Positions 8,301 to 30,357 of a DNA stretch of 35,428 nt are shown piece by piece. The stretch is from an uncultured Gammaproteobacteria bacterium (GTDB lineage Bacteria > Patescibacteriota > Patescibacteriia > UBA2591 > CAZVCF01), in assembly GCA_964626355.1 (NCBI GenBank), contig CAZVCF010000002.1, positions 7,184-42,611 of the forward strand. Direction: 5' to 3'. The stretch's first letter is position 1. Each line of letters starts with the position of its first letter. Under the pieces are notes generated by a model. It was not told the DNA's origin, ran no database searches, and saw nothing but the letters and a program-made list of their open reading frames with translations. Position numbers and translations under genes: made by a program.

Positions 8301-8832
8301 TCACGGTTTCCACTAGCGTTGGCGATTCTGTTTTTTTCTCTTCTGATTCATCGTCGTCTAAATATAGCTCGCCACTTTGATCATTCAATAAATTAACCTT
8401 TCCCTCTATGGGAGCCGTAGACTTCTTTTCTGAAAACGAAAAAACGTCCACCAAAGTACCAAACATTTGTTTATTGAGATTCACAAAATTTTGCCCGGCA
8501 TTTTTTATCTTTTGCAGTACACTCTCTTCCGATTTTTTGACTGTTTCTATCTCTTGCGGAGTCGCGTCAGCCTTGCTTACGGCGAGATCGCTTCCTTTCT
8601 GAATAGTAATTTCTGCGGCGTTAACAGTTTTTGTAACATTTTCTACTATTTTTTCCGCTTCCGTCTCAACTTTTTTCTCATCCACTCGTGCGCCTTCCGT
8701 CGTTTCCATCTGTTGCGGCAACGGCTCTTCTTTCACTGGCTTATCAGATTCTTCTCGACGCAATTTCGCGTCTTTTTGAAATTGATCGCTCTCTTTTTGC
8801 GCTGCTTTTAATTTTTCATTATCAATTCCCAT
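5308..8832 (-). CDS. Large (1174 aa) hypothetical membrane protein: charged Glu/Lys-rich N-terminal half, central TM cluster, Pro-rich C-terminal half
   Basis: Single uninterrupted ORF. Gly/Ala-rich hydrophobic helices (SAGLGAGAVFMFVPTAMAGIGIGAYF.., LAGTMVLGVSGGIG, LCGGLAVAGAMIGEAYLV). No catalytic motif recognised. Confidence 0.75.
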   Translation of the reverse strand: MGIDNEKLKAAQKESDQFQKDAKLRREESDKPVKEEPLPQQMETTEGARVDEKKVETEAEKIVENVTKTVNAAEITIQKGSDLAVSKADATPQEIETVKKSEESVLQKIKNAGQNFVNLNKQMFGTLVDVFSFSEKKSTAPIEGKVNLLNDQSGELYLDDDESEEKKTESPTLVETVTTGEVDKSIASGIKESPLAEKKTPPLSTAKAEVLKIDKAETSASVEKLEKALTPILNVELPLPDEVVKEDESSHDKIVVDDKANEEERKRRTEEKKKATITAVLKNNEALEVFLEGLRERVEKKESSFERVAKIIDILLQEARLEKMDNSIIVSLEKEAKDYMEQEEKERVKDKPPEEKPEEKKESLLEVVKTARDDARKKYFELFKEYEQQNRLVGGKTGNEALLQEVYQKYEQANVEYGKSFVKEKLKEGKSQEEATAFVFEECIVNEKDIFQKEFTDSWPPKEKGIVGKLWEKWTKMKPPVRWVISAGLGAGAVFMFVPTAMAGIGIGAYFTYRLARAALAGTMVLGVSGGIGKIANASWFREKILGGKTLEHAKEEYRQEVRGTGKELKEEEVEIFLRAKQSGYDAILDNEAKYQKRVGIAKLCGGLAVAGAMIGEAYLVHGAYSNALIDKLGIERPHIQVPIGDGKGVAQPESGKGNVPPPEPTGPSREEILRPIEKQNIENLAKLGTVGKGEGVWHAVKRQVEYLTQMNRNALNAQEMQLNKDQLTEILTKKFGLKPEDLKGINFDDGLDKNEINELTGKILIKEGWLTPGGEMRIAHEGVRVAFDGTGNAKLIDVDNTPAGQEDIYFKFNKPEVPIEPATESIPQDVTIEASPKPVAAVTEPNTLKTTATEQQPIGQKSGLEVSPKPVDALPPVRSEVFKNLDSSIKQATVTQNAEQFMKDHGVKIEGMKVQVGDKTFLFDDSSIDGTSPDKINITLSDKGALHVALGDRYTGKSSFEITPDNKISAVENIKTYVSPPVGSQSGSIETPPPQAPKPTDAPDTKQSSAAVTEPLQKQIENIQEVKPKDLDLSHFSKMVHFNDTTLNESFTMKENEVVNVLNEWTKVGSRYFLVAQDDKITVNRIIGMEMLERKLESLKNNTFSFAEDIEKDIPQAQRGGFIDAYKNKLVSSIRADLKSYGESLPESNGDWQARLKSVVEESKLKEYYPEWY

Positions 8833-9334: not shown

Positions 9335-9533
9335 AACCTTATTATACGCTTCGCGCAAAAAAACAAAATGCTGATATGCACAATTCTATTTTCGCAGAGA
9401 TTTAAAATTTCAGTTTCGGGGGCCAGTTTCAGAGGTCAGACCTCTGAAATCTCAGAAATTTTTGCAATGGCACGCGCGTTTAAATGTTAATATATATTTG
9501 CCTTTGCGTGAAAAAAGAACGATCATCATACTG

Positions 9534-10229
9534 ATGAAAAAACCCTATCTTAAAAAAATCGGCGACGTGTCCATATTCAAAGTATGGCGCGTTGACGGCA
9601 ATTATATCCGCTCAAAAATTGATGAAGAGTTCACTAATTGCGGACAACATTATCTTTTCAAATTTATTCCGAAATACGAACTCTGGATTGATTATGAAGC
9701 GCATCCGGGAGAAACGGACTACTATATCAATCATCTCATTATTGAAAATCGTTTAATGGAAGCCGGAACCGGCTATGGTCAAGCGCTGAATGTTGCGACG
9801 CTTATTGAACAGCGCGAGCGGGATAAAAATCGCGAGATTCAATTATTAAAAAAACGAAATCTTCATCACGTGCCAAAACAAGTGTATATAAAACGGATTA
9901 AATCAAGCACTAAAAATTTCAAAATATGGCTCGTGAATGGAGAGTTAGTCCGCGATCTCTACTATATTAATTTCACTGAAGGAGGTCATGAAAAAGTATA
10001 TTCTTTCGTGCCAAAAGGAGAGGTATGGCTTGACGACGATATCTCGCGAAAAGAAATACAATTCGTTCTGATCCACGAATTGCATGAAAGGTATCACATG
10101 GCTCACGGATTGCCATACTATAAAGCGCATCGCTACGCAAGCGAAGTTGAATACGCGGCGCGAAGGCGTCCAACAACCACACAAAAAAAATTACGTCTTG
10201 AAATAAAGAAAAATGAGGAAATTATATAA
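9534..10229 (+). CDS. Hypothetical protein made of two tandem homologous domains; the second carries IHELHERYHM
   Basis: ORF track starts at TTG 9462. ATG at 9534 (MKKPYLKKIG...) is more plausible. Internal duplication is visible by eye (see findings). Confidence 0.7.
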   Translation: MKKPYLKKIGDVSIFKVWRVDGNYIRSKIDEEFTNCGQHYLFKFIPKYELWIDYEAHPGETDYYINHLIIENRLMEAGTGYGQALNVATLIEQRERDKNREIQLLKKRNLHHVPKQVYIKRIKSSTKNFKIWLVNGELVRDLYYINFTEGGHEKVYSFVPKGEVWLDDDISRKEIQFVLIHELHERYHMAHGLPYYKAHRYASEVEYAARRRPTTTQKKLRLEIKKNEEII

Positions 10230-10583: not shown

Positions 10584-11963
10584 ATGAAAAAATTACTTAT
10601 CGTAGTGGTGTGCGTGTCGTTTATAGCGCCGTGGGGCGCGATCGCGAACGCGCAGTTTGGTCCGCCGCCCGGAGGCGATTTTGGCTCCGGAGGTCCTGGA
10701 AGTATGATGAGTCCGCCGTCGGGTGGCAGTTTCGGCCCGCCTAGCGGAGGTCAAATGATGGGACCTGGAGGACAAGGAGGATTTGGTCCAGGTGGCGGAG
10801 ATACATGCAATATCAATGGAACTGAAGTACCCGGAAAATGCAAAGATCTTGAACAAGGGAAAAACATGATGGGACCTGGCGGTCAGAACGGAGGTCAAGG
10901 AGGATTTGGTTCTGGAGGGCCAGGGGGAGGCCAAATGATGGGTCCGGGCGGTCCGGAAGGCAATATGCCCGACGAAGCTCAAATGGAAGAAATGCAAAAA
11001 AAACAAATGAAAATGCAATTAACTGGAATGTTAAGAGGAATCAAACAAGGAATGAAAGGAATGGGGCAAGGAATGAAAATGATGAAATCGGCGCTTGTTA
11101 AATTAGAAAAACAAGGAATAGCAACGCCTACAGAATTAAAAGAAGCATTAGCAAAAGCTGACGAAATGATTGCGTACATAAACGGAATAAAATCAGCGGA
11201 TGATATCGCTGATCAAGATGCGTTTATGGACAAGATGAGCGATATGCGCGATGTTGGAGACGTAATGCAAGAATGGGGTCCAAAAATCGGAGACCTTTTT
11301 CGTATCGCGTCAATGATAAAAGAAGCTGATCGAAGAATGAAACAAATTGATAAAGATGTGAAACGCGCAAAAGCGCAGGCGGCGAAATCAAAAGTTGACC
11401 TGTCCGATATTATTGCCGAACTGGATAATAAGGTAAATGCGTCTCGCGAAGCGTTTAACGCGGCAAAATCAGCGACGGATGTGGATGAAAAACAAACATC
11501 TCTTGAAGCATTTTTTGAAAGTATGCAAGACATTTACGACACCATACGAGTTATTGATAGCATGAAAAATCTTACGAAAGCAAAAACAGATTGGGCGCGA
11601 CAAATCAAATTAAACGATCAAGTGATCAAACAACTTCAGCGAAAAAAACTTGATGTTGAAGAACTACTGTCAACTCAAAGCGAATTGAAAACGAAATATA
11701 ACGAATTGGTCGCGACGCTCGCGCAAAAACCGATTGATCAAGACGCGATCGTTGATCTTCTTGAAGAAGGAAAAACACTTCAGGCGCAATTCATTGACGC
11801 GAAAGATCAGCTACTCGGGCAAGAATCAGAAATTCCGCAACTCCAATACGAAAAATTCAGCGGACCAAAAATGGATTTTGGCGCATTTCAACAATTCAAG
11901 AAAACGCCAGCAGCAGCTGAAAGTGACAACGGTGGAGAAGGAGGAGAAAATATAGAAGAATAA
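10584..11963 (+). CDS. Secreted hypothetical protein: signal peptide, Gly/Pro/Met-rich low-complexity region, long helical C-terminal region
   Basis: MKKLLIVVVCVSFIAPWGAIANAQ signal-like N-terminus. Repeated GGQMMGPGG / GGFG(P/S)GG units. Lys/Glu/Asp-rich helical remainder. Confidence 0.8.
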   Translation: MKKLLIVVVCVSFIAPWGAIANAQFGPPPGGDFGSGGPGSMMSPPSGGSFGPPSGGQMMGPGGQGGFGPGGGDTCNINGTEVPGKCKDLEQGKNMMGPGGQNGGQGGFGSGGPGGGQMMGPGGPEGNMPDEAQMEEMQKKQMKMQLTGMLRGIKQGMKGMGQGMKMMKSALVKLEKQGIATPTELKEALAKADEMIAYINGIKSADDIADQDAFMDKMSDMRDVGDVMQEWGPKIGDLFRIASMIKEADRRMKQIDKDVKRAKAQAAKSKVDLSDIIAELDNKVNASREAFNAAKSATDVDEKQTSLEAFFESMQDIYDTIRVIDSMKNLTKAKTDWARQIKLNDQVIKQLQRKKLDVEELLSTQSELKTKYNELVATLAQKPIDQDAIVDLLEEGKTLQAQFIDAKDQLLGQESEIPQLQYEKFSGPKMDFGAFQQFKKTPAAAESDNGGEGGENIEE

Positions 11964-19714: not shown

Positions 19715-20314
19715 ATGTTTAAAAGAATAGCTAAAAATATTCGCGCGGCCATCGATCGGTATCGCGCGAAAAAAAATAATAAACAGCGCGACGCATTCCT
19801 TAGATTATATTGTTTGCACGCCCTTTGCAATGAAAAAATAAAAAAAGAGCAAATCAATAAAGAGAGTATCTATCGATTGTATGACCAAATCCGAGCGTTG
19901 CCGCAAATTGAAAAAATACGCGTTCAATACAAAAAAAACAAATTTATTGTCTATACGCAGCCGCTCTTTATTGATTATGACGATAAACGATATGGTATTG
20001 GCTCGTTTAAAATCTCAATCGCTTTTCCTAAAATGGAGATACGAATACAGAATCGCACAAACAAACGATATTGCGAGAAAAAATATGATTTTGGCATAGA
20101 TCGTTATCATCACCCTCATATAAAGAATGATATAATCTGTTTCGGGAATATAGGTCCTACGATATATTCTCTACTCAGGCACTACGAATTTCACGCGGTT
20201 TTACAAATAATTGTCTTGTTTTTGGAGAGTTATTGCGATGACATGCCTTACTATAATATTAAAAACTGGGACACGGTACCGAAAAACGAACAATTAAGAA
20301 TGGAAAACAAATAA
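19715..20314 (+). CDS. Hypothetical protein with UBC/E2-like motif layout (tentative)
   Basis: 199-aa ORF, ATG start, followed by a strong terminator. See finding for GSFKISIAFP ... YHHPHIKNDIICFGN ... VLQIIVLFLESYCDDMP. Confidence 0.7.
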   Translation: MFKRIAKNIRAAIDRYRAKKNNKQRDAFLRLYCLHALCNEKIKKEQINKESIYRLYDQIRALPQIEKIRVQYKKNKFIVYTQPLFIDYDDKRYGIGSFKISIAFPKMEIRIQNRTNKRYCEKKYDFGIDRYHHPHIKNDIICFGNIGPTIYSLLRHYEFHAVLQIIVLFLESYCDDMPYYNIKNWDTVPKNEQLRMENK

Positions 20315-22031: not shown

Positions 22032-22403
22032 TTATCTTTTGCCTTTTAGAGTAAGTATACTTGAAGCAATGACATTCGCTATTTCAATCACTTCCTGCAA
22101 TAACCAACGCAATTCGTCTTGATTGCCCTTTTTCAGTTCTTTTAAAAGAGTAATCCAAACTTTTGATTCATTTGCTGATTTGAGCGCATGCGTAAAAAAA
22201 TTCGTGAAATCTTTTCGTGAACTTGCGGAATTTGCTTCAATATAATTTGCCAAAATACTTGTACCGCTTCGCAATAATTGTTTACCCATTACCTCACTTA
22301 CCGAATCCTTAGGCAACGCATCAATATATTTAATCAATCGCACAACGAAAGAATATACCCTTTTTTTGAATTCATCTTTAAATTTTGCATTGTCATTTTG
22401 CAT
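22032..22403 (-). CDS. Four-helix-bundle protein (23S rRNA intervening-sequence protein family), copy 2
   Basis: 123-aa ORF MQNDNAKFKDEFKKR...GKQLLRSGTSILANYIEANSASSRKDF.... Paralogue of 16172..16543. Confidence 0.85.
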   Translation of the reverse strand: MQNDNAKFKDEFKKRVYSFVVRLIKYIDALPKDSVSEVMGKQLLRSGTSILANYIEANSASSRKDFTNFFTHALKSANESKVWITLLKELKKGNQDELRWLLQEVIEIANVIASSILTLKGKR

Positions 22404-22480: not shown

Positions 22481-23368
22481 TTACTTCCTAAACCAAAGAA
22501 GGAATGGACTTGCGATTGCGATTGAAGAGTACGTTCCGACCGCGATGCCGACTGCCATTGCCAAGACAAAATAAAATATCGGCGACGGACCAAAAAACAA
22601 CATCGCGAAAATCGCGAAGAGCGTTGTCAAGGTTGTATTGATTGTGCGCGTCAATGTTTCATTTAAACTAAAATTGACTACCTCCGGAAGCGTTTTCTTG
22701 GTATGCTTCATAATATTTTCTCGTATGCGATCGTAGACGATAATCGTATCGTTAATCGAATAACCGAGAACCAACAGCATCGCGACAATAAAAGTTGAAT
22801 CTAATTCAACGCGAGAGAAATGCCCGAGCAAAGACCAGAGCCCCGTCATAATAATCAAATCGTGAATCAACGCGATAATCGCTCCTGCGCTATAACGAAA
22901 CGGTTCGCGCCGCCCAATGATCCGCAATTTTTTAAACGCGATAGCAATATAAATAAAGATTACAAGAATAGCGAGAAATACCGATTTTTTCGCGTTATTT
23001 TTTAATTCAACGCCTATCACCGGCCCAATTGTTTCATAACGATTCTCCTGCGGTTTTCCTACTGTTTCAATAATTTTATTATGCTCTTCATCTGAAATTG
23101 CCTTTGTTTTGATAAGATATACTGCGTCCCCGATTGATTGCGCGACTGGAGCGCTGCCCGTAATCGTTTTTATTTTTTCCACGATGACTAATTCGGTGAT
23201 TGCTTCGCTTGTCGTAACATTTTTGAAATCAAACTCCATCAGCGCGCCGCCGGTGAAATCAAGTCCTGGCACAAGACCCCATTTCACAATACTAACAAAA
23301 GAAATAATAATCGCGCATGCGGAAAGCACAAGAAAAAATTTATTCAGTTTTAAAAAATTAATTTGCAT
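22481..23368 (-). CDS. secF: Protein translocase subunit SecF
   Basis: 295-aa ORF: ..LVPGLDFTGG.., ..LIHDLIIMTGLWSLLG.., ..LLVLGYSINDTIIVYDRIREN.. typical SecF TM core. Confidence 0.9.
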   Translation of the reverse strand: MQINFLKLNKFFLVLSACAIIISFVSIVKWGLVPGLDFTGGALMEFDFKNVTTSEAITELVIVEKIKTITGSAPVAQSIGDAVYLIKTKAISDEEHNKIIETVGKPQENRYETIGPVIGVELKNNAKKSVFLAILVIFIYIAIAFKKLRIIGRREPFRYSAGAIIALIHDLIIMTGLWSLLGHFSRVELDSTFIVAMLLVLGYSINDTIIVYDRIRENIMKHTKKTLPEVVNFSLNETLTRTINTTLTTLFAIFAMLFFGPSPIFYFVLAMAVGIAVGTYSSIAIASPFLLWFRK

Positions 23369-23479: not shown

Positions 23480-25093
23480 TTACTTGACGTACATCTTCTG
23501 CAAAAATACCCTTGTCACCGTGATCGCGGTAAACATACTGACGATGACACCGACTCCGAGCGTTAATCCGAAACCGCGCAAAAGACTGCTTCCAAAATAA
23601 TACAAAATCGCGCAGGTAATTAAGGTGGTCACATTACTGTCGCGAATCGCGGACCACGCGCGGTCAAATCCGAACTCAAGCGCCATCACGCGATCGCTTC
23701 CTTTGTTCATTTCTTCCTTCATTCGTTCAAAAATCAACACATTCGCGTCAACTGCCATGCCAAGTGAAATAATAAATCCAGCGATACCGGCAAGCGTCAT
23801 TGTCACACCAACAATTTTGAATAAGGCGATACTTAACACCAAATATATTATCAAACTAATTGACGCGACAATGCCTTTTGTACGATAAAACAAAATCATA
23901 AAAAGTATAATTGCCGCGATGCCAATGATGCCGGCTTTTATACTTTTATCAACCGCTTCTTTTCCCAATTGCGCGCCGATGGTATTCTGGCTGATTAATT
24001 TAATCGGAATCGGCAACGCGCCGGCGCTAAGCCGCTGAGCCAATAATTTCGCCTCTTGCACCGAAAAATCGCCGGTGATGACCGCTCGTCCGGAAGTAAT
24101 CGGTTCCTGCACACGCGGAACGCTAATCGCCGCGGAGTCCAAAAATATCGCTACCGGCTTATTCACATTTCGCGTGGTAATTTCACCGAACAATTTTGAT
24201 CCTTCTTCGTTAAACTCAAGCGAAACTTCCGGCTGTCCGGTACTTGGATTAAACGAAACGCCCGCGATCTTCAAATGCTTCCCGGAAAGTTGTGTATTTT
24301 TCCATGGATTCGCGCTTGCTTCCAATTTTTTTGTTTTGATTAAAACGTGCGACGCATTATATTCCTTTTGGTCTCCTTCTCCACGCTCGTCATTTTTCCT
24401 TACAATATGATAGCCGAACGGCGATTGAATCGGGTCTTTTGACATCTCGCCTTTTTGAAGCCGTATCACTTCATCCTCAAACGGCTGAACCATCATTCCT
24501 TTTCTAAACCATCCAAGTTCTCCGCTTTTCGATCCAGAGCCTGGATCTTCGCTATACTGTTTCGCCGCGACCTCAAAAGTTGTCTTTTTTTGTTCAATCT
24601 CATTGAGAATTCTATAGATACGTGCTTGCGCATTTTTATTATAGTCGTCTATTTCTTTCTGTTGATCCGATGACACCGTTGCTTTCTCGTCTTCTTCCTT
24701 GAATTCCAACACCGGCGTTTCGCCGATCATTTTTTTTGCGTCTTCTATATTTTTAATGCCGGGCAATTCAACGATGATACGCCATTCGTCCGCAGACTTA
24801 TTCGTGCGCACAATCGGCTCCGCAACACCAAAATAATTGATTCGCCGTTCGATTACATCGCGCGTTCCTTCAACCGCCTTTTCTCGTTCCGAAACAGGAA
24901 CATTCGCCGTGTCGGTTTGATAGACTAAATGCGATCCTCCTTGCAGATCGATTCCCAACGACAGATGACGATCGGTAAACCATTTTGCCATCGGCACCCA
25001 TTCAGGAACTTTCGGCAATGTAACAAGCGCCGCGGCTATCGCGACGACAATAATCAGCCAAAATAGATTATCAACCTTGTGTTTATTAAGCAT
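23480..25093 (-). CDS. secD: Protein translocase subunit SecD carrying an inserted parvulin-type PPIase domain
   Basis: 537-aa ORF: ..LGIDLQGGSHLVY.., ..AIFLDSAAISVPRVQEPITSGRAVITGDFSVQEAKLLAQRLSAGALP.., TM core ..LGMAVDANVLIFERMKEE... The insert spans about aa 145-256. Confidence 0.9.
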   Translation of the reverse strand: MLNKHKVDNLFWLIIVVAIAAALVTLPKVPEWVPMAKWFTDRHLSLGIDLQGGSHLVYQTDTANVPVSEREKAVEGTRDVIERRINYFGVAEPIVRTNKSADEWRIIVELPGIKNIEDAKKMIGETPVLEFKEEDEKATVSSDQQKEIDDYNKNAQARIYRILNEIEQKKTTFEVAAKQYSEDPGSGSKSGELGWFRKGMMVQPFEDEVIRLQKGEMSKDPIQSPFGYHIVRKNDERGEGDQKEYNASHVLIKTKKLEASANPWKNTQLSGKHLKIAGVSFNPSTGQPEVSLEFNEEGSKLFGEITTRNVNKPVAIFLDSAAISVPRVQEPITSGRAVITGDFSVQEAKLLAQRLSAGALPIPIKLISQNTIGAQLGKEAVDKSIKAGIIGIAAIILFMILFYRTKGIVASISLIIYLVLSIALFKIVGVTMTLAGIAGFIISLGMAVDANVLIFERMKEEMNKGSDRVMALEFGFDRAWSAIRDSNVTTLITCAILYYFGSSLLRGFGLTLGVGVIVSMFTAITVTRVFLQKMYVK

Positions 25094-25252: not shown

Positions 25253-27349
25253 TTATTCAATTTCTCCGCCAGAGGAATAAATTTCTTTGAAAATGAATAG
25301 TTTTTGAATCTCATTCGTGCCTTCAAATAACTTATTGATGCGCGCGTCGCGATACAGACGTTCAATCGGATATTCTTCCATATATCCGTATCCGCCAAAT
25401 ACCTGCAATGCCGTATCAATGACTTCAGAACCAAGTTCGGAACACTGCAATTTCACAATAGCCGCTTCAAGCCGCACGTCTTTTCCTTGATCGAATTTCG
25501 CCGCCGCCTGATACACCGCCTGCTCCATCATATAAATCTTCGCGCGCATTTCCGCGAAATAGAATTGAATTGCTTCAAACTCAATAAGCGTCTTATCAAA
25601 TTGTTGCCGTTGGGAAGCGTACGCGTACGCGAGCTCAAACGCCTCTTTTGCCGCGCCAAGACATCCTGCCGCAAGCGATAATCGCCCGCCGTTGAGCGTC
25701 TGCATAAAAATCTTAAATCCTTGTCCGACTCCGCCAAGCAAAGCGTCTGCTGAAACTTCCACATTATCAAATACTAATCCCGCGGTGCGCGACGCTCTAA
25801 TACCCATTTTTTTCTCTATTTTGCCAACGGAAAAACCTTTCGAACCTTTATCAACGATAAATGCCGCGAGACCTTTCTGCCCTAAAAATTTATCTGTTTG
25901 CGCAATTACGACTACAAAGTCAGCGATATCGCCATTCGTGATAAATTGCTTGCGTCCGTTTAGAATCCATTTGTCGTCTTTGAATACCGCGGTTGTCTGA
26001 ACATTCGCCGCGTCTGATCCAGCGCCCGGTTCCGTCAACGCAAACGCGCCAATCATTTTTCCTTCAAGCCCTGCGCGAAGATACTTTTGTTTTTGCGCTT
26101 CGGTGCCGCCGATATAAATCGCGCCGCACGCCAAACCTGTATGCGCGCCAACGAGCGCTGCTGTCGAGCCATGCGCGCGCGACAGTTCTTCCATCACAAT
26201 GCAATATCCTGTTTTTCCAAAATCTGAACCGCCGTATTTTTCTGGAAACGCCGTTCCAAAAAATCCGAGTTCCGCCATTTTCTCAAATAACGCACGCGGA
26301 ATTTGCTCTTCGCTTTCCATTTTTTCAACATTCGGCCGTATTTCATTTTTGACAAAATCACGGGCTGTTTCTTTTAAAAGTTTATATTCTTCCGAAAGAT
26401 CCGATGGAACTATTGCCTGTTGTGGCGCAGATGGAGCCGCAACTGTTTCTTTCTTTTCTTCCGGCAACTGAATTTTCAAAAATTTCGCAAGACCTTTTTT
26501 CGCGCTTTCTTTCATCACTAATTCGGCGAATAATTGCTGTTCAAGAGACAATGCCTCATCGGCAGAAAAGAACAAACCATCAACGACCGCGCGAAGAATT
26601 ACTTGAACTGCATCTGGAGATTTTGAAGCAGATAAAGTCTTAAAATTCGCATCTTCAGAAATCATTTCGATAATTTTCTGCTTATCCGCTTCTGTACGTT
26701 CGGGACGCGCCAGTTGGGACGATAAATCGTCAAATTCTTTATCCCCTTCCATAATTATTTTTGCGATTTCTTTTGTTTTTGCGATTAAATCTTTTTGCGG
26801 AACAACAAAATCAACCAAACGTATCGCGTGCGCATCGCGTGCGGAAATAATATTTCCGGCAACAAGCATATAAACCGCCTTTTTTACATCCGTGACCAAA
26901 CGCGGAAGTCGCTGCGTTCCGCCCATCCCTGGCATAATGCCTAAATTAATTTCCGGCTGACCGAATTGCGCTTGATCGGATGCAACGCGGATACCGCATG
27001 CCATCGCGATTTCGTTGCCGCCGCCAAGGCAATAGCCGTCAATTGCCGCGATAACTGGCTTTGTTAAATCTTCAATTGTATTCGCGACACTGTTCGCTTT
27101 TGCCAATAATTCTTTTGCTTTTTCTACATCATTACTTTGCGCTATCTGCCAAATTTCAGTTACATCTGCGCCTGTTGAAAATAACCCTTTTCCGGTAAGA
27201 ATAACTACTTCAACTGCGTCATTTTTTTCCATTTCCTTAAACGCGGATTGCAATTCCATCATAACTGGCGTTGACAGGTTGTTGCGCGGAGGATTCTGAA
27301 TAACGATAATCCCCATTTGATCGCTTACTTTTGTCTCTATGTATTTCAT
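25253..27349 (-). CDS. Fusion protein: N-terminal enoyl-CoA hydratase (crotonase) plus C-terminal acyl-CoA dehydrogenase
   Basis: 698-aa ORF. Crotonase part ..GKGLFSTGADVTEI.., ..AAIDGYCLGGGNEIAMACGIRVAS..FGQPEINLGIMPGMGGTQRLPRLV. ACAD part ..GAFALTEPGAGSDAANV.., ..FITNGDIADFVVV.., ..QVFGGYGYMEEYPIERLYRDARINKLFEGTNEIQ. SD-like AAGGGAGA before the ATG. Confidence 0.85.
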   Translation of the reverse strand: MKYIETKVSDQMGIIVIQNPPRNNLSTPVMMELQSAFKEMEKNDAVEVVILTGKGLFSTGADVTEIWQIAQSNDVEKAKELLAKANSVANTIEDLTKPVIAAIDGYCLGGGNEIAMACGIRVASDQAQFGQPEINLGIMPGMGGTQRLPRLVTDVKKAVYMLVAGNIISARDAHAIRLVDFVVPQKDLIAKTKEIAKIIMEGDKEFDDLSSQLARPERTEADKQKIIEMISEDANFKTLSASKSPDAVQVILRAVVDGLFFSADEALSLEQQLFAELVMKESAKKGLAKFLKIQLPEEKKETVAAPSAPQQAIVPSDLSEEYKLLKETARDFVKNEIRPNVEKMESEEQIPRALFEKMAELGFFGTAFPEKYGGSDFGKTGYCIVMEELSRAHGSTAALVGAHTGLACGAIYIGGTEAQKQKYLRAGLEGKMIGAFALTEPGAGSDAANVQTTAVFKDDKWILNGRKQFITNGDIADFVVVIAQTDKFLGQKGLAAFIVDKGSKGFSVGKIEKKMGIRASRTAGLVFDNVEVSADALLGGVGQGFKIFMQTLNGGRLSLAAGCLGAAKEAFELAYAYASQRQQFDKTLIEFEAIQFYFAEMRAKIYMMEQAVYQAAAKFDQGKDVRLEAAIVKLQCSELGSEVIDTALQVFGGYGYMEEYPIERLYRDARINKLFEGTNEIQKLFIFKEIYSSGGEIE

Positions 27350-27506
27350 CGTTTTGTCTCCCTTAATACGGCTTTTTTAATAAAAGCGCGTTATTCCTAT
27401 TGTGTAATAAACTATTGTTGTTTTACTCCTTTCAATAGGATAAGTCAATGGCTAAAAATATGTTTCTCTCTACATGGTACGCCAAACGGGTAAATCCTAA
27501 AATATA

Positions 27507-27540
27507 AAAAAGGGAGAAAACATTTCTCCCTTTTGGTTTT
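27507..27540 (-). terminator. Hairpin terminator between the 3-hydroxyacyl-CoA dehydrogenase and fusion genes
   Basis: AAAAAGGGAGAAA-ACA-TTTCTCCCTTTT with T/A runs on both sides. Confidence 0.55.
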
Positions 27541-27586
27541 TTATATATTCATTATTTCTGATTCATAATTATTTATTCATGTCCGA

Positions 27587-28795
27587 TTACCACTCCGCAT
27601 CAAAAATCTTTTTGTTGTTTGTCGCGTATTCTTCAAGAAGTTTTGATGGTTTGAAACGAATGCCGTATTTTTGCTCGTACTGTTTCAATTCAACGAAAAT
27701 CGCCACAAGTCCTTCGCTTTCCGCCCAATGCAACGGTCCGCCTAAAACCATTGGAAACCCGATGCCATATTTGCATCCTGTTTCAATATCCTCTGCTGAA
27801 GCAATCCCTTCTTCAAGGCACAAAAACGCCTCATTCACAAAACCATACAGCATTCGCTTAAAAGCTTCTTGAAGATCGAGAGCAACTCTGTTCTGAAAAT
27901 TCTGACTCACGATCTCCGCACTATCTTCGAATCCTTTTGTTTCGTCGTATACATAAAATCCCGCGCCCGCTTTTTGTCCGTATCGTTTTTTTTCAACGAG
28001 TATTTGCATCAACTGAGCCGGCTTCACGCGTTCGCCGTATCCTTCATATAAAATTTTTGCGACTTCAAGACCAATATCAATCCCTAAATAATCTAAGAGT
28101 ATGAATGGGCCCATCGGCCAACCGAAATGTTGCGCTATAGAATCAATTTCTTTAATCGTTAACGTTGTTTCTGAAAGAAGAAGCGTTGCTTCGTTAAGAT
28201 AGGGTAATAATAATCTGTTTGCCAAAAATCCCGGGCATTCTTTTATCCGTATCGGAATTTTTCCAAGAGAATTTTTCGTGAAATCTTCAAGCGCGTCAAC
28301 TGTTTCAATTGATGTTGTTTTTCCGGAAATAAGTTCGATGAGCGGCATCGTCACCGGCGGATTGAAAAAATGCACGCCGATAATTTTATCTTTTCTTTGT
28401 TCCTGAACCACAGTTGCCATTTCCGTGATCGAAAGTGATGAAGTATTTGTCGCGAAAATAACCGACAGAGGCACGAGTGCATCAAGTTCGGCAAAAACTT
28501 TTTTCTTTATATCCATTCGTTCAAACACTGCTTCAATTATCAAATCAACATCTTTCAGATCGTTATAATCCGCGGTTGTTGCAATAAGCGCTTTTGCCAT
28601 TTCACCTTTATCGGACATTATCTTTCCTCGTTCAACAGCGCTGCCGATTCTTTTAAACATTTTTTCCTGCGCTTTGCTCGCCAATTCGGTGTTCATTTCT
28701 TTAACAACTACCTGTATTCCCTGTTGCGCAATCAGCATCGCGATACCTTGTCCCATCGCTCCGCCGCCGACTACGCCAACTTTATAAATTGCCAT
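27587..28795 (-). CDS. 3-hydroxyacyl-CoA dehydrogenase (long form, extra C-terminal domain)
   Basis: 402-aa ORF: Rossmann motif VGVVGGGAMGQGIAMLIAQQG, ..NTSSLSITEMA.., ..GVHFFNPP.., ..PGFLANRLL... SD AGGAG 8 nt before the ATG. Confidence 0.85.
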   Translation of the reverse strand: MAIYKVGVVGGGAMGQGIAMLIAQQGIQVVVKEMNTELASKAQEKMFKRIGSAVERGKIMSDKGEMAKALIATTADYNDLKDVDLIIEAVFERMDIKKKVFAELDALVPLSVIFATNTSSLSITEMATVVQEQRKDKIIGVHFFNPPVTMPLIELISGKTTSIETVDALEDFTKNSLGKIPIRIKECPGFLANRLLLPYLNEATLLLSETTLTIKEIDSIAQHFGWPMGPFILLDYLGIDIGLEVAKILYEGYGERVKPAQLMQILVEKKRYGQKAGAGFYVYDETKGFEDSAEIVSQNFQNRVALDLQEAFKRMLYGFVNEAFLCLEEGIASAEDIETGCKYGIGFPMVLGGPLHWAESEGLVAIFVELKQYEQKYGIRFKPSKLLEEYATNNKKIFDAEW

Positions 28796-28826
28796 CTTTT
28801 TTCTCCTGTTATTTACTTTACTTTTA

Positions 28827-28858
28827 CGAGATGAAATTATTATGATAATTTCATCTCG
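28827..28858 (-). terminator. AT-rich hairpin just upstream of the dehydrogenase SD (possible relic terminator)
   Basis: CGAGATGAAATTAT-TATG-ATAATTTCATCTCG, a perfect 14-bp stem. Confidence 0.35.
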
Positions 28859-28866
28859 CCTATTTT

Positions 28867-28896
28867 TTACGCTCGCTCAATTATAAGCGCTTCTAC
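28867..28896 (-). pseudogene. Relic 3' end of a second thiolase gene (9 codons plus stop)
   Basis: Minus strand reads GTA GAA GCG CTT ATA ATT GAG CGA GCG TAA = VEALIIERA*. The intact thiolase ends GGALIIERA*. The copies differ mostly at synonymous positions. Confidence 0.45.
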
Positions 28897-28930
28897 CCAG
28901 CTCCAGTTTTTATTCAAAAACTGGGGCTGG
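28897..28930. terminator. Hairpin downstream of the thiolase gene
   Basis: CCAGCTCCAGTTTTT-ATTC-AAAAACTGGGGCTGG (15-bp stem, one mismatch). Confidence 0.35.
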
Positions 28931-28986
28931 ACTTCGCTTTGTTTGTTCACTGTGAACGTATTGCACAATTGGAATCCTATCTTACT

Positions 28987-30264
28987 TTACGCTCTTTCAA
29001 TAATTAACGCTCCACCCTGTCCGCCGCCGACGCACATGGTGATCATCGAATACCGTTTCTGAAACTCTTGCAAAATATGAATTGCTTTAACGGTTAAATA
29101 TGATCCTGTTGCGCCAACGGGATGACCAAGCGCGATCGCGCCGCCCCATACATTCAATTTTTCATCCGGAATACCGAGCGCGCGTTGATCCGCTAACGCC
29201 TGCGCCGCAAACGCTTCGTTTAATTCGAAAAAGTCTATCTCTTCTATTTTTAATCCTGCTTTTTCCAGAGCTTTTGGAACTGCATATATCGGCCCTTCCG
29301 CCATATACGCGGGATCACATGCCGCGTACCCGTACGATACAATATATGCTTCCGGTTTCAAATCAAGAATAAGCGCCGCTTCTTCTGTCATAATCAGCAT
29401 TGCGGAAGCGCCGTCCGATATTGGACATGAATTCGTCGGAGTGATCGTTCCTTTATTCGAAACTTTCTTCTCAACAATTATTTTCCCATTTTCATAGCGA
29501 GATTTTGGATTATGCGCTTGATAAATATCATCATCCATAAAAATCGCCGGCGTAAGTGACGCCATCTGTTTATTTAATCCGGGATTAACGCATTCGTCTT
29601 CAGCAAATATTTTTTCTCCGGAAAGCACTTTTTCTCCGATAACAGTATTATTCTGAATCACGATTGGAATAATCTGCGATTTAAATTTTCCCTCTCTCTT
29701 CGCGCGAAACGCTTTTTGGTGCGACTTCACCGCAAAATCGTCCTGATCTTCTCTGCTGATGCTATATTTCTTAACGACATTTTCGACCGTGCGTCCCATA
29801 ATTTGTCCGAGCAACGGATCGGTCAATCCTTCCCACAAACCATCGGTAAAATAAGAATGTTGCATCTTTAATCCAAATCGCGCACCTTTCACTAAATACG
29901 GAATCTGCGACATATTTTCCGTTCCGCCGACTAAAAATATTTTTCCGTCGCCAGCTTTATATGTTTGGCACGCCGAAGTAATTGCTTCAATTCCGGACGC
30001 GCAATTTCTCTGCACCGTTTTCGCGGGAATATCTTGAGGAACTCCTGCTAAAAGCGCGGATAACCTTGCCACATTCGCCGCGTCAGACGGCTGACACACG
30101 TTTCCAGCAACAACTTCGCTAATCAATTTCGGATCTATTTTCGTTTTTTTAAGCACGTCCTCAAAACATATCGCCAATAATTGCGCCGCTGAAACATCTT
30201 TTAAACTCCCGCCAAAACTCCCAATCGGCGTCCGCACGCCTCCAATAATCACTAATCTATTCAT
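28987..30264 (-). CDS. Acetyl-CoA C-acyltransferase (thiolase)
   Basis: MNRLVIIGGVRTPIGSFGGSL, active-site ..QRNCASGIEAI.., ..NEAFAAQ.., ..GGAIALGHPVGATG.., ..CVGGGQGGALIIERA. The track ORF starts at TTG 30297. ATG 30264 is preceded by AAAGGAA and matches normal thiolase N-termini. Confidence 0.9.
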   Translation of the reverse strand: MNRLVIIGGVRTPIGSFGGSLKDVSAAQLLAICFEDVLKKTKIDPKLISEVVAGNVCQPSDAANVARLSALLAGVPQDIPAKTVQRNCASGIEAITSACQTYKAGDGKIFLVGGTENMSQIPYLVKGARFGLKMQHSYFTDGLWEGLTDPLLGQIMGRTVENVVKKYSISREDQDDFAVKSHQKAFRAKREGKFKSQIIPIVIQNNTVIGEKVLSGEKIFAEDECVNPGLNKQMASLTPAIFMDDDIYQAHNPKSRYENGKIIVEKKVSNKGTITPTNSCPISDGASAMLIMTEEAALILDLKPEAYIVSYGYAACDPAYMAEGPIYAVPKALEKAGLKIEEIDFFELNEAFAAQALADQRALGIPDEKLNVWGGAIALGHPVGATGSYLTVKAIHILQEFQKRYSMITMCVGGGQGGALIIERA

Positions 30265-30357
30265 TGTGTTATTTCCTTTATATTTATTATTTTTCAAGAA
30301 CTACCATTAGGGTACTACTAATTTCTCTAATGTCAATCATCGAAAAAACTCAAAAAA

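What the first reader, a model, noticed from the sequence alone, without database searches (positions are those of the whole stretch)
24326..24661. SecD carries an inserted, apparently circularly permuted parvulin-type PPIase domain
An extra ~110 residues sit between the conserved SecD segments ..ETPVLEFKEE and WKNTQLSGKHLKIAGVSF.. in the periplasmic P1 region.

The insert reads ARIYRILNEIEQKKTTFEVAAKQYSEDPGSGSKSGELGWFRKGMMVQPFEDEVIRLQKGEMSKDPIQSPFGYHIVRK. From memory, this aligns well with E. coli PpiC/Par10 ([51 protein letters not shown]...TQFGYHIIKV).

The strand that normally opens the parvulin fold (AALHILVK in PpiC) appears here after the last strand, as YNASHVLIKT (aa 245-254). That amounts to a circular permutation, which would suit insertion into a host loop.

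A covalent foldase inside the SecDF periplasmic head would couple late translocation to prolyl isomerisation or chaperoning. In other bacteria separate PpiD/PrsA/SurA proteins supply that function.
Basis: partly seen in the sequence, partly recalled or inferred. Interest (0 to 1): 0.7.

Follow-up and report, generated by a model that had tools for sequence, protein, structure and literature searches.

The report
SecD with built-in, permuted parvulin foldase
The protein-export subunit SecD of this candidate-phyla-radiation bacterium carries, inside its outward-facing domain, a prolyl-isomerase (parvulin) domain whose first strand has moved to the end; hundreds of related genomes share this fusion, none of the papers searched describes it, and it ties protein export physically to protein folding.

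Summary

- **The gene.** Window 23480-25093 (- strand) encodes a 537-aa SecD (TIGR01129, 398.7 bits against a cut-off of 244.4). secF lies directly downstream.
- **The insert.** Residues about 137-259 sit between the P1-base segment and the P1-head. They match the Pfam Rotamase models (E 1.7e-22) but only from profile position about 28 of 116, so strand b1 is missing at the N-terminus.
- **The moved strand.** A b1-like strand, EYNASHVLIK (residues 244-253), follows b4. Moving it to the front in silico restores a full-length profile match.
- **Predicted structure.** AlphaFold2 gives a compact domain (pLDDT 94.4, pTM 0.86) ordered a1-a2-a3-b2-a4-b3-b4-b1'. It superposes on solved parvulins at 1.0-1.9 A over 75-79 aligned columns.
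- **Conservation.** Both active-site histidines and S181, D183 and S/T224 are kept in 213-215 of 215 distinct inserts.
- **Distribution.** At least 423 stretches in the species-representative genome collection match. All named hits are Patescibacteria.
- **Likely origin.** The insert is colinear with the SurA P1-to-P2 junction, which suggests a cut-out from tandem parvulins.
- **Variant forms.** 76 two-unit forms probably nest a canonical parvulin inside the permuted one.
- **Literature.** No paper found describes the fusion or a permuted parvulin.
- **Limits.** PPIase activity is untested, and the 3D position of the moved strand is inferred rather than measured.

The parts
23480..25093 (-). 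secD gene, 537 aa: TM1, P1 base, parvulin insert, P1 head, TM2-6
   Evidence: ORF listed. TIGR01129 secD 398.7 bits against cut-off 244.4. Pfam Sec_GG, SecD_1st, Rotamase, SecDF_P1_head and SecD_SecF_C. Foldseek top hits are SecDF structures 5yhf and 3aqp.
24689..24871 (-). P1-base N-terminal part (SecD_1st, residues 75-135), ending in the strand ETPVLEFKE
   Evidence: PF21760 E 3.5e-17. Residues 123-132 align to T. thermophilus SecDF 107-116.
24317..24685 (-). Whole inserted parvulin domain (residues 137-259)
   Evidence: Rotamase_3 E 1.7e-22. The isolated domain is predicted with pLDDT 94.4 and pTM 0.86. Foldseek matches with probability 0.99 or higher are parvulin-containing structures: SurA, PrsA, archaeal parvulins and Pin1. 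tblastn confirms the coordinates.
24383..24670 (-). Parvulin a1-a2-a3-b2-a4-b3-b4 (residues 142-237). Carries S181, D183, L193, M201, F205, S224, G227 and H229.
   Evidence: DSSP on the models: H142-167, H173-180, H184-187, E192-197, H203-211, E222-224, E227-237. Matches profile positions 28-114 of 116. Residue conservation. Translation checked.
24365..24382 (-). b4-to-b1' hairpin loop (residues 238-243), a length-variable site across the family
   Evidence: The spacing between the two histidines ranges from 15 to 72 residues in 215 inserts. Two-unit forms carry a whole extra parvulin here.
24335..24364 (-). Relocated parvulin strand b1' EYNASHVLIK (residues 244-253), with invariant H249
   Evidence: Translation. 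Strand E244-253 has block-mean pLDDT 95 over residues 241-250 and 96-97 in the isolated domain. H249 and L251 are invariant in 114 sequences. H/H pair in 213 of 215. The de-permutation test restores profile positions 1-9. Local matches to the b1 strands of SurA and PrsA.
24008..24301 (-). P1 head subdomain (residues 265-362)
   Evidence: PF22599 E 1.5e-29, profile positions 17-114 of 114. Residue 270 onward aligns to T. thermophilus SecDF from 161.
23492..24001 (-). SecD transmembrane domain (residues 365-534), including the invariant D449 in GMAVDANVL
   Evidence: PF02355. Helices H378-535. D449 is invariant. It aligns to GAAVDGNVL of T. thermophilus SecDF.
22481..23368 (-). secF gene, 295 aa, directly downstream on the same strand
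   Evidence: PF02355 E 2.2e-56 and Sec_GG.

Best explanation
This is a bona fide SecD, the proton-driven accessory subunit of the Sec translocon. Its extracytoplasmic P1 domain carries a complete parvulin-type PPIase domain, inserted right after the last P1-base strand at the base-to-head junction.

The domain is a natural circular permutant. The chain enters at helix a1, runs a1-a2-a3-b2-a4-b3-b4, makes a hairpin, and ends with the strand that normally comes first (b1, carrying the first active-site histidine). The two tethers to SecD therefore lie where the b1-a1 loop of ordinary parvulins would be.

The permutant most likely arose when a piece of a SurA-like tandem-parvulin gene was captured: the first domain minus its b1, plus the b1 of the next domain.

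Proposed function (inferred, not shown): the domain is an active, non-phospho-specific prolyl isomerase and holdase tethered to the translocon. It would meet unfolded chains as the P1 head pulls them out of SecYEG, and catalyse or chaperone their folding. That is the job done elsewhere by lipid-anchored PrsA, membrane-anchored PpiD or soluble SurA.
For: Shown here:
- SecD identity and an intact secDF pair.
- The Rotamase match covers only profile positions 28-114 of 116.
- The same truncated coverage appears in other single-unit homologs.
- Moving residues 240-258 to the front extends the PF00639 match from 10-96 to 1-96 of 97. It raises bits from 83.6 to 86.6 for PF00639 and from 85.5 to 89.9 for PF13616.
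- AlphaFold2 gives the element order and high confidence, both in the whole protein (block-mean pLDDT 91-96 over residues 151-250) and for the domain alone (pLDDT 94.4, pTM 0.86).
- Foldseek superposes a1..b4 on solved parvulins at rmsd 1.0-1.9 A over 75-79 columns (4g2p, 6xd8, 2m08, 2rqs). It leaves the targets' N-terminal b1 and the query's last strand unaligned.
- Strand b2 is in the DSSP 'E' state while sitting at its canonical position. The only strand left to pair with it is b1' (inference).
- Covariation among 180 inserts links b1' to b2 (196-247), a4 (209-247, 210-245), a1 (155-252) and b4 (237-244, 235-246, 234-248).
- Active-site residues are conserved: H229/H249 in 213 of 215, S181 and D183 in 213, S/T224 in 215, F205 in 208.
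- The one single-unit sequence that lost H229 also lost H249 (L077).
- The insert is colinear with the SurA P1-b4 / linker / P2-b1 segment.
- Distribution: at least 423 stretches in species-representative genomes, and every one of the 240 listed protein hits from two searches carries the Rotamase domain.

From papers:
- E. coli SurA binds the holotranslocon. AlphaFold places its parvulin domains on the SecDF P1 head (PMC9987972).
- PrsA-like parvulin lipoproteins form a dome on the Sec-SecDF translocon in Mycoplasma pneumoniae (bioRxiv 10.1101/2025.04.25.650208 and 10.1101/2024.09.05.611430).
Against: - No model coordinates were available. The position of b1' in the b1 slot is inferred from secondary structure, confidence, the rmsd of the rest of the domain, and covariation. 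It was not measured by a permutation-aware superposition.
- The score gain on de-permutation is modest (3-4 bits).
- The covariation signal may partly reflect subfamily structure.
- PPIase activity is untested. In SurA, PrsA and PpiD the isomerase activity is often dispensable or absent (established knowledge), so conserved residues do not prove catalysis matters in vivo.
- The orientation of the insert relative to SecY is unknown (pTM of the full model is 0.56).
- I could not check whether these genomes lack stand-alone parvulin chaperones.
Confidence: 0.7

Rival explanations
1. The insert is a parvulin-fold module that serves only as a substrate-binding, holdase or structural element of the P1 head. 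It would have no physiologically relevant isomerase activity, like the parvulin domain of PpiD or domain P1 of SurA.
For: Parvulin domains of envelope chaperones are often catalytically silent or dispensable (established knowledge; PMC9643414 discusses PpiD). In the 76 two-unit forms, one of the two units has lost its histidines in most sequences. L077 has lost both. So a non-catalytic version is tolerated.
Against: In single-unit forms the full catalytic set is kept almost without exception: H/H in 213 of 215, S181 and D183 in 213 of 215, S/T224 in 215 of 215. Where a unit degenerates, an intact canonical unit is present alongside it: mid-b1 His in 75 of 76 and b4B His in 76 of 76. This points to selection for at least one intact active site.
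Confidence: 0.2
2. There is no true circular permutation. The parvulin is simply truncated (no b1), and residues 244-253 are a linker or belong to the SecD P1 head.
For: Sequential methods (Pfam, Foldseek) align only a1..b4. I had no coordinates to see the strand directly.
Against: - A parvulin sheet cannot close without its central b1 strand (established knowledge of the fold).
- The strand carries the canonical A-S-H-I-L-I motif with an invariant His and Leu.
- It is predicted as a strand at block-mean pLDDT 96-97 in the isolated domain, where no SecD partner exists.
- De-permutation restores the missing profile positions.
- It covaries with b2, a1, a4 and b4.
- T. thermophilus SecDF has no counterpart for it.
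Confidence: 0.04
3. The parvulin acts on the machine rather than on substrates. It could be a regulatory plug or proline switch controlling P1-head movement, or a docking site for a partner protein.
For: It sits exactly at the base-to-head junction that moves during the SecDF cycle (plus established knowledge of the F and I forms). The relative domain orientation is uncertain (pTM 0.56).
Against: No conserved proline-containing target motif was identified. The conserved surface residues are those of generic substrate-binding parvulins. Known parvulin-Sec associations all concern substrate folding (PMC9987972; bioRxiv 10.1101/2025.04.25.650208).
Confidence: 0.06

Closest known systems
SecDF of Thermus thermophilus (PDB 3AQP, 5YHF) and Deinococcus (5XAM/5XAN)
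   Same: Same protein family and domain plan: GG motif, P1 base, P1 head, six TM helices per half, and the conserved TM aspartate. These are the top sequence and fold matches for the whole protein.
   Different: The solved SecDFs have about 44 residues where this SecD has about 137. None contains a PPIase domain. Here secD and secF are separate genes.
SurA (E. coli, PDB 1M5Y): periplasmic chaperone with two tandem parvulin domains
   Same: Best PDB sequence match of the insert (E 2.6e-24). The insert is colinear with P1 (minus its b1) + linker + b1 of P2, down to the linker motif ND-RGE. SurA parvulin domains are reported to dock on the SecDF P1 head (PMC9987972).
   Different: SurA is soluble and has an N/C chaperone core. 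Its parvulin domains have the normal strand order. In SurA the strand after P1-b4 belongs to the next domain, whereas here it folds back to complete the same domain.
PrsA (Bacillus, PDB 4WO7, 6XD8): lipoprotein foldase of monoderm bacteria
   Same: A membrane-tethered, non-phospho-specific parvulin that folds proteins leaving the Sec channel. Closest superposition: 6xd8, rmsd 1.0 A over 77 columns, 47% identity.
   Different: PrsA is a separate lipoprotein dimer with a flanking NC chaperone domain and a canonical strand order. No NC domain is detected here.
PpiD-YfgM at SecYEG (E. coli)
   Same: A parvulin-containing protein anchored in the membrane next to the translocon exit (PMC9643414).
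   Different: It is a separate TM-anchored protein. Its parvulin domain lacks PPIase activity (established knowledge), whereas the catalytic residues are conserved here.
Mycoplasma pneumoniae dome complex (Mpn444, Mpn436, Mpn489 with Sec-SecDF)
   Same: A genome-reduced bacterium in which PrsA-like parvulin proteins are near-obligately associated with the SecDF-containing translocon (bioRxiv 10.1101/2025.04.25.650208; 10.1101/2024.09.05.611430).
   Different: The association is non-covalent and involves large lipoproteins, and that paper describes the system as unique to Mycoplasmas. Here the foldase is one small domain fused into SecD itself, and it is permuted.

Membership tests
Parvulin / PPIC-type PPIase (Pfam PF00639, PF13616) | Significant profile match above the curated cut-off | tested here: met
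   PF13616 80.6 bits (cut-off 22.5). PF00639 79.3 bits (cut-off 21.7).
Parvulin / PPIC-type PPIase (Pfam PF00639, PF13616) | Canonical element order b1-a1-a2-a3-b2-a4-b3-b4 | tested here: not met
   The order is a1-a2-a3-b2-a4-b3-b4-b1'. The profile match starts at position 28 of 116. It is a permuted variant, not a canonical member.
Parvulin / PPIC-type PPIase (Pfam PF00639, PF13616) | Three-dimensional superposition on solved parvulins | tested here: met
   Foldseek probability 1.00. Rmsd 1.0-1.9 A over 75-79 columns with 6xd8, 4g2p, 2m08 and 2rqs. This is a predicted model, not an experimental structure.
Parvulin / PPIC-type PPIase (Pfam PF00639, PF13616) | Active-site network (Pin1 H59, C113 or Asp, T152, H157, plus M130 and F134) | tested here: met
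   H249, D183, S/T224, H229, M/F201 and F205 are conserved in 208-215 of 215 inserts, except M201 (M 135, F 60). The mapping to Pin1 numbers comes from my own alignment knowledge.
Parvulin / PPIC-type PPIase (Pfam PF00639, PF13616) | Measured cis/trans prolyl isomerase activity | not testable with these tools
   Needs an enzyme assay.
SecD (TIGR01129) | Equivalog-domain model above the cut-off, with SecD-specific domains | tested here: met
   398.7 bits against 244.4. Sec_GG, SecD_1st, SecDF_P1_head and SecD_SecF_C present.
SecD (TIGR01129) | Partner secF and the conserved TM aspartate of the proton path | tested here: met
   secF at 22481-23368. D449 is invariant and aligns with the Asp of GAAVDGNVL in T. 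thermophilus SecDF.
Circular permutant of a known fold | The N-terminal element is absent at the N-terminus and present at the C-terminus, and re-ordering restores the full-length match | tested here: met
   PF00639 coverage goes from 10-96 to 1-96 of 97, with a higher score. The motif order GxH...ASHILI is kept in the large majority of the 120 protein hits (about 105 by motif search) and in 75 of the 80 loci.
Circular permutant of a known fold | The relocated element occupies the same place in 3D | tested here: inconclusive
   Supported indirectly by DSSP, pLDDT, the canonical rmsd of the remaining elements and covariation. No coordinates were available for a permutation-aware superposition.
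PrsA / SurA / PpiD-type envelope chaperones | N- and C-terminal chaperone (SurA_N / trigger-factor-like) module flanking the parvulin | tested here: not met
   No such Pfam family is among the hits at E <= 1. The flanks are SecD P1 segments. It may work like these proteins but is not a member.

The most novel reading that the evidence does not exclude
The fusion is a 'Rosetta stone' showing that the SecDF P1 head and parvulin foldases form one functional unit in bacteria generally. In these organisms the proton-driven swing of the P1 head would be mechanically coupled to a catalytic foldase, so that pulling and prolyl isomerisation or holding happen on the same moving arm.

It would also be the first natural circularly permuted parvulin. 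The two-unit relatives would be a three-level nesting: a canonical parvulin inside a permuted parvulin inside SecD P1.
Probability: 0.2. Interest if true: 0.8.

Novelty: new variant of a known kind. Interest (0 to 1): 0.62.

Why it matters
How proteins are handed from the Sec channel to folding helpers is still debated. Contacts of SurA and PpiD with the translocon in E. coli, and the PrsA-like dome in Mycoplasma, are recent findings resting partly on models.

A covalent SecD-parvulin fusion, conserved across a very large bacterial radiation, is independent evolutionary evidence that the SecDF head and parvulin foldases work together. It also offers a small single-chain system in which to test this.

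For the candidate phyla radiation, it suggests how minimal cells without an outer membrane keep a foldase at the export site.

For protein evolution, it is a clean example of permutation by capture of a tandem-repeat segment. It gives a parvulin with new termini next to the active site, plus a probable domain-in-domain-in-domain derivative.

Tried and rejected
- **Foldseek on the whole SecD model** returned only SecDF and RND transporters and said nothing about the insert. I therefore modelled the insert alone.
- **The exhaustive phmmer search** of the junction against 1.84 billion representatives was not a clean census. Multi-parvulin proteins score as high as true fusions, and 50% clustering collapses the family. 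It gave 7 hits at E <= 1e-30 and 20,852 at E <= 1e-3. It did reveal divergent forms, P0214 and P0217.
- **P0214 and P0217** looked as if they might be non-CPR because of high-GC-like composition (P0217 is also a fused SecDF). P0214's nearest named relatives are Candidatus Uhrbacteria, and P0217 clusters with them at 62% identity.
- **Suspicious organism labels.** 26 loci titled 'uncultured Gammaproteobacteria bacterium' and one titled 'Lysobacteraceae' might have meant the fusion exists outside CPR. Most have their nearest or second-nearest neighbour among CPR-labelled loci, at up to 87% identity; the rest group with each other. Their GC content is similar. They are most likely mislabelled MAG records, so I rejected this as evidence.
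- **The 109-column Foldseek match to 8hm4** might have suggested a second permuted parvulin. It is explained more simply by a longer a1 helix, and the b4-loop-b1' fragment did not hit that entry. I did not pursue it.
- **One database call timed out**.
- **No other parvulin-like sequence** was found in the 35-kb window. This says nothing about the rest of the genome.
- **No tRNA or Rfam hits** in the window helped with taxonomy.
Full report
**The observation**

The ORF at window 23480-25093 (- strand) encodes a 537-aa protein, followed on the same strand by a 295-aa ORF at 22481-23368. Pfam finds, in order:
- Sec_GG (residues 41-63)
- SecD_1st (75-135)
- Rotamase_3 / Rotamase (147-235; E 1.7e-22 and 4.5e-22)
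- SecDF_P1_head (265-362)
- SecD_SecF_C (365-534)

The downstream ORF is SecF. NCBIfam's secD equivalog-domain model scores 398.7 bits against a cut-off of 244.4.

So the object exists, sits where stated, and is far above chance.

**Where the insert sits**

In the alignment with T. thermophilus SecDF, residues 123-132 (IGETPVLEFK) match Tt 107-116, and the match resumes at residue 270 against Tt 161. This SecD therefore has about 137 residues where the solved SecDF has 44. The extra material begins directly after the last strand of the P1 base, at the junction with the mobile P1 head.

The rest of the protein looks functional:
- The TM aspartate D449 (GMAVDANVL) is invariant in 114 homologs and aligns with GAAVDGNVL of Tt SecDF.
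- The whole-protein AlphaFold2 model has mean pLDDT 86.7.
- Its best PDB fold matches are SecDF 5yhf, 5xan and 3aqp.

**Is it a circular permutant?**

Six lines of evidence agree.

1. *Profile coverage.* The Rotamase profiles are matched only from position 28 of 116 (PF13616) or 10 of 97 (PF00639), so the part covering strand b1 is missing at the N-terminus. The same truncated coverage is seen in divergent single-unit relatives.
2. *The strand after b4.* After the last parvulin strand (GYHIVRK) and a six-residue loop comes EYNASHVLIK, the classic b1 motif of parvulins. In local alignments it matches the b1 strands of SurA ('ELNLSHILI') and PrsA ('IRASHILV').
3. *De-permutation test.* I moved residues 240-258 in front of residues 139-239 in silico. 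The PF00639 match extended from positions 10-96 to 1-96 of 97. Scores rose from 83.6 to 86.6 bits (PF00639) and from 85.5 to 89.9 bits (PF13616).
4. *Predicted structure.*
   - AlphaFold2 gives H142-167, H173-180, H184-187, E192-197, H203-211, E222-224, E227-237, E244-253, with block-mean pLDDT 91-96 over residues 151-250.
   - The insert modelled alone (residues 137-259, 50-sequence alignment) is a compact domain with mean pLDDT 94.4 and pTM 0.86. Its last strand has block-mean pLDDT 96-97.
5. *Fold comparison.*
   - Foldseek of that model finds parvulin-containing structures as all its matches with probability 0.99 or higher.
   - Single-domain parvulins superpose at rmsd 1.0-1.9 A, but over only 75-79 columns. 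Examples are PrsA 6xd8 (77 columns, 47% identity), SurA-P2 4g2p (79 columns), and the archaeal parvulins 2m08 and 2rqs.
   - The targets' N-terminal b1 and the query's C-terminal strand are left out. This is what a sequential aligner does with a permutant.
   - Strands b2, b3 and b4 lie at canonical positions, and b2 is in a hydrogen-bonded strand state. The only strand available to fill the slot between b2 and b4 is 244-253. This step is inference, because I had no coordinates.
6. *Covariation.* APC-corrected mutual information over 180 distinct inserts (effective number 137) has these among its top 35 pairs:
   - b2 to b1': 196-247
   - a4 to b1': 209-247, 210-245
   - a1 to b1': 155-252
   - an antiparallel b4 to b1' ladder: 237-244, 235-246, 234-248

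   Part of this may be subfamily signal.

**Conservation of the active site**

In 114 aligned homologs the invariant insert residues are F173, S181, D183, G191, F205, G227, H229, H249 and L251.

By my mapping onto human Pin1, H249 = H59, D183 = C113 (Asp in many parvulins), S/T224 = T152 and H229 = H157. That is the hydrogen-bonded catalytic network. M201 and F205 line the proline pocket.

Over 215 distinct single-unit inserts:
- the His pair is H/H in 213;
- S181 and D183 are each kept in 213;
- S/T224 is kept in all 215.

The single sequence that lost H229 (L077, GYNIV) also lost H249 (VSRILV).

The basic phosphate-binding loop of Pin1 would lie in the b1-a1 connection. That is exactly where this domain is opened, so it should be a non-phospho-specific parvulin like Par10 or PrsA (inference).

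**How common it is**

- All 120 best database hits to this SecD (51-58% identity) carry PF00639/PF13616 together with the SecD domains. Every organism name given is Patescibacteria or Parcubacteria.
The best 80 loci cover the whole base-parvulin-head junction.
- Titles of those loci include Magasanik-, Buchanan-, Komeili-, Kerfeld-, Falkow-, Uhr-, Kuenen-, Veblen- and Nomurabacteria, Paceibacter and one Saccharibacteria.
- 27 loci carry non-CPR titles ('uncultured Gammaproteobacteria', 'Lysobacteraceae'). Most of them interleave with CPR-labelled loci at up to 87% identity and look mislabelled.
- The high-GC-looking form P0214 has Uhrbacteria as its nearest named relatives. P0217, a 905-aa fused SecDF with the insert, clusters with them at 62% identity. 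All 120 hits of that search also carry the fusion.
- The b4-then-b1 order is kept in 75 of the 80 loci by motif search; four lack a motif match and one is a two-unit form.

The fusion is therefore a lineage-wide feature of many Patescibacteria, not a curiosity of this contig. Databases name it simply 'SecD'.

**Origin**

The best PDB sequence match of the insert is E. coli SurA (E 2.6e-24).

One of the two SurA alignments is colinear across a domain boundary: 'GFHILKVNDLRGESKN..EVHARHILLK' (end of parvulin 1, linker, first strand of parvulin 2) against 'GYHIVRKNDERGEGDQ.KEYNASHVLIK'. With only the b3-b4-loop-b1' fragment as query, this SurA junction is again the top hit.

The simplest history is capture of a segment of a tandem-parvulin gene that began after the first b1 and ended after the second b1. 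That is the classical duplication-and-truncation route to a permutant. Canonical parvulins already have adjacent termini (they are inserted unpermuted in SurA and PrsA). So the permutation was not needed for insertion.

**Two-unit relatives**

Seventy-six clusters of about 660-720 aa carry two Rotamase stretches. Their layout is: unit A (a1..b4), then 'ASHILI', then unit B (a1..b4), then a final b1-like strand.

| Position | Residue pattern |
|---|---|
| b4 of unit A | non-His in 72 of 76 |
| middle b1 | His in 75 of 76 |
| b4 of unit B | His in 76 of 76 |
| final strand | non-His in 55 of 76 |

The intact pair is the contiguous canonical one (middle b1 plus unit B). The degenerate pair is unit A plus the final strand. 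The parsimonious reading is a canonical parvulin nested in the b4-b1' hairpin of a now-degenerate permuted parvulin.

This fits the variable length of that hairpin: 15-72 residues between the histidines in single-unit forms. The nested topology is inferred from conservation only.

**How it most likely works**

Established knowledge of SecDF (T. thermophilus F-form and I-form structures) says the P1 head binds the unfolded chain emerging from SecYEG and swings on the base, driven by proton flow through the TM domain.

Here a parvulin with an apparently intact active site is tethered by two adjacent connections at that hinge. I propose that it binds Xaa-Pro segments of emerging chains, isomerises or holds them, and so couples late translocation with folding. 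This would replace, or supplement, a separately anchored foldase.

Support from papers:
- SurA binds the E. coli holotranslocon, and AlphaFold places its parvulin domains on the SecDF P1 head (PMC9987972).
- PpiD-YfgM sits at SecYEG (PMC9643414).
- In Mycoplasma pneumoniae, PrsA-like parvulin lipoproteins form a dome on the Sec-SecDF translocon and cross-link to SecD (bioRxiv 10.1101/2025.04.25.650208; 10.1101/2024.09.05.611430).

What is shown: the architecture, the fold, the residue conservation and the distribution. What is inferred: catalysis, the substrates, and the geometry relative to SecY.

**Comparison and novelty**

The protein is a member of SecD. The insert is a parvulin by sequence and predicted fold but fails the canonical-order criterion, so it is a permuted variant. 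It is not a PrsA-, SurA- or PpiD-type chaperone, because no NC chaperone module is present, although it probably works like one.

Literature searches gave the following:
- No paper combined 'parvulin' with 'circular permutation' or 'circularly permuted'.
- None of the papers returned for SecD/SecDF with PPIase, parvulin, CPR or Parcubacteria terms, judged from their titles and abstracts and from term searches within the four I opened, describes such a fusion.
- The library covers only open-access papers and bioRxiv, so absence is not proof.

I rate it a new variant of known kinds, of moderate-to-good interest.

**Limits**

- No coordinates were available, so there was no permutation-aware superposition.
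- No enzyme data exist.
- Only 35 kb of the genome was visible. The absence of other parvulins in the window says nothing about the whole genome.
- The exhaustive representative search was not a clean census.
- One database call failed.

Noticed in passing
P0050, P0080, P0084, P0096, P0110, P0127, P0145 and about 70 more clusters; locus L062 (protein level): Two-unit SecD forms of about 660-720 aa: unit A, then ASHILI, then unit B, then a final b1-like strand. The histidine pattern (non-His, H, H, mostly non-His) suggests a canonical parvulin nested in the hairpin of a degenerate permuted parvulin. That would be a three-level domain nesting inside SecD P1.
   Followed up: partly
P0214, P0217 and P0274-P0287 (Candidatus Uhrbacteria); also P0056, P0060, P0088 and loci L032-L036: The b4-to-b1' hairpin carries insertions of up to about 50-60 residues, rich in Gly, Val and Glu. 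The spacing between the two histidines ranges from 15 to 72 residues. P0217 and P0284 are fused SecDF proteins (905-908 aa) that still carry the insert.
   Followed up: partly
P0123 (about residues 335-350), P0214, P0217, within the P1 head: An extra Asp-rich loop (for example DTNEDGKIDGNDVY, DENDDGVIDAQDVY) is inserted in the P1 head of some relatives. It resembles a calcium-binding DxDxDG loop. It is not present in the window's SecD.
   Followed up: no
L077 (Candidatus Falkowbacteria); L072: These are the only single-unit inserts lacking a histidine. L077 lost both together (GYNIV ... VSRILV). L072 lost only the b1' one (VSEILL).
   Followed up: partly
window 25253-30297 (- strand): Directly upstream of secD lie three genes: a 698-aa enoyl-CoA hydratase / acyl-CoA dehydrogenase fusion, a 3-hydroxyacyl-CoA dehydrogenase, and a thiolase. 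This is a beta-oxidation or butyrate-type gene set, unexpected in a candidate-phyla-radiation genome with reduced metabolism. The contig's GC content is even (0.35-0.46), so there is no obvious sign of chimerism.
   Followed up: no
window 5308-8832 (-), 9462-10229 (+), 10584-11963 (+), 19715-20314 (+): There is a 1174-aa ORF and three smaller ORFs with no Pfam match at E <= 1e-5. The AT and GC skew changes sign around 9-13 kb, where the gene strand switches.
   Followed up: no
loci L005, L011, L015, L018, L019, L032, L036 and others (26 loci), and L009: Genome records titled 'uncultured Gammaproteobacteria bacterium' (third-party MAGs) and 'Lysobacteraceae bacterium' encode the CPR-type SecD-parvulin fusion. 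Several have CPR-labelled records as nearest neighbours, at up to 87% identity. One is a 558-kb contig. They are probably mislabelled Patescibacteria MAGs.
   Followed up: partly
window 22032-22403 (- strand): A 123-aa '23S rRNA intervening-sequence protein' family gene (PF05635) sits between secF and a glycosyltransferase gene. No rRNA is present in the window.
   Followed up: no
P0295 (370 aa, NCBI): A truncated copy of the fusion, from a contig end, is named 'peptidylprolyl isomerase, partial' by its source. Full-length copies are named 'SecD'. So automatic annotation sees one half or the other, never both.
   Followed up: no
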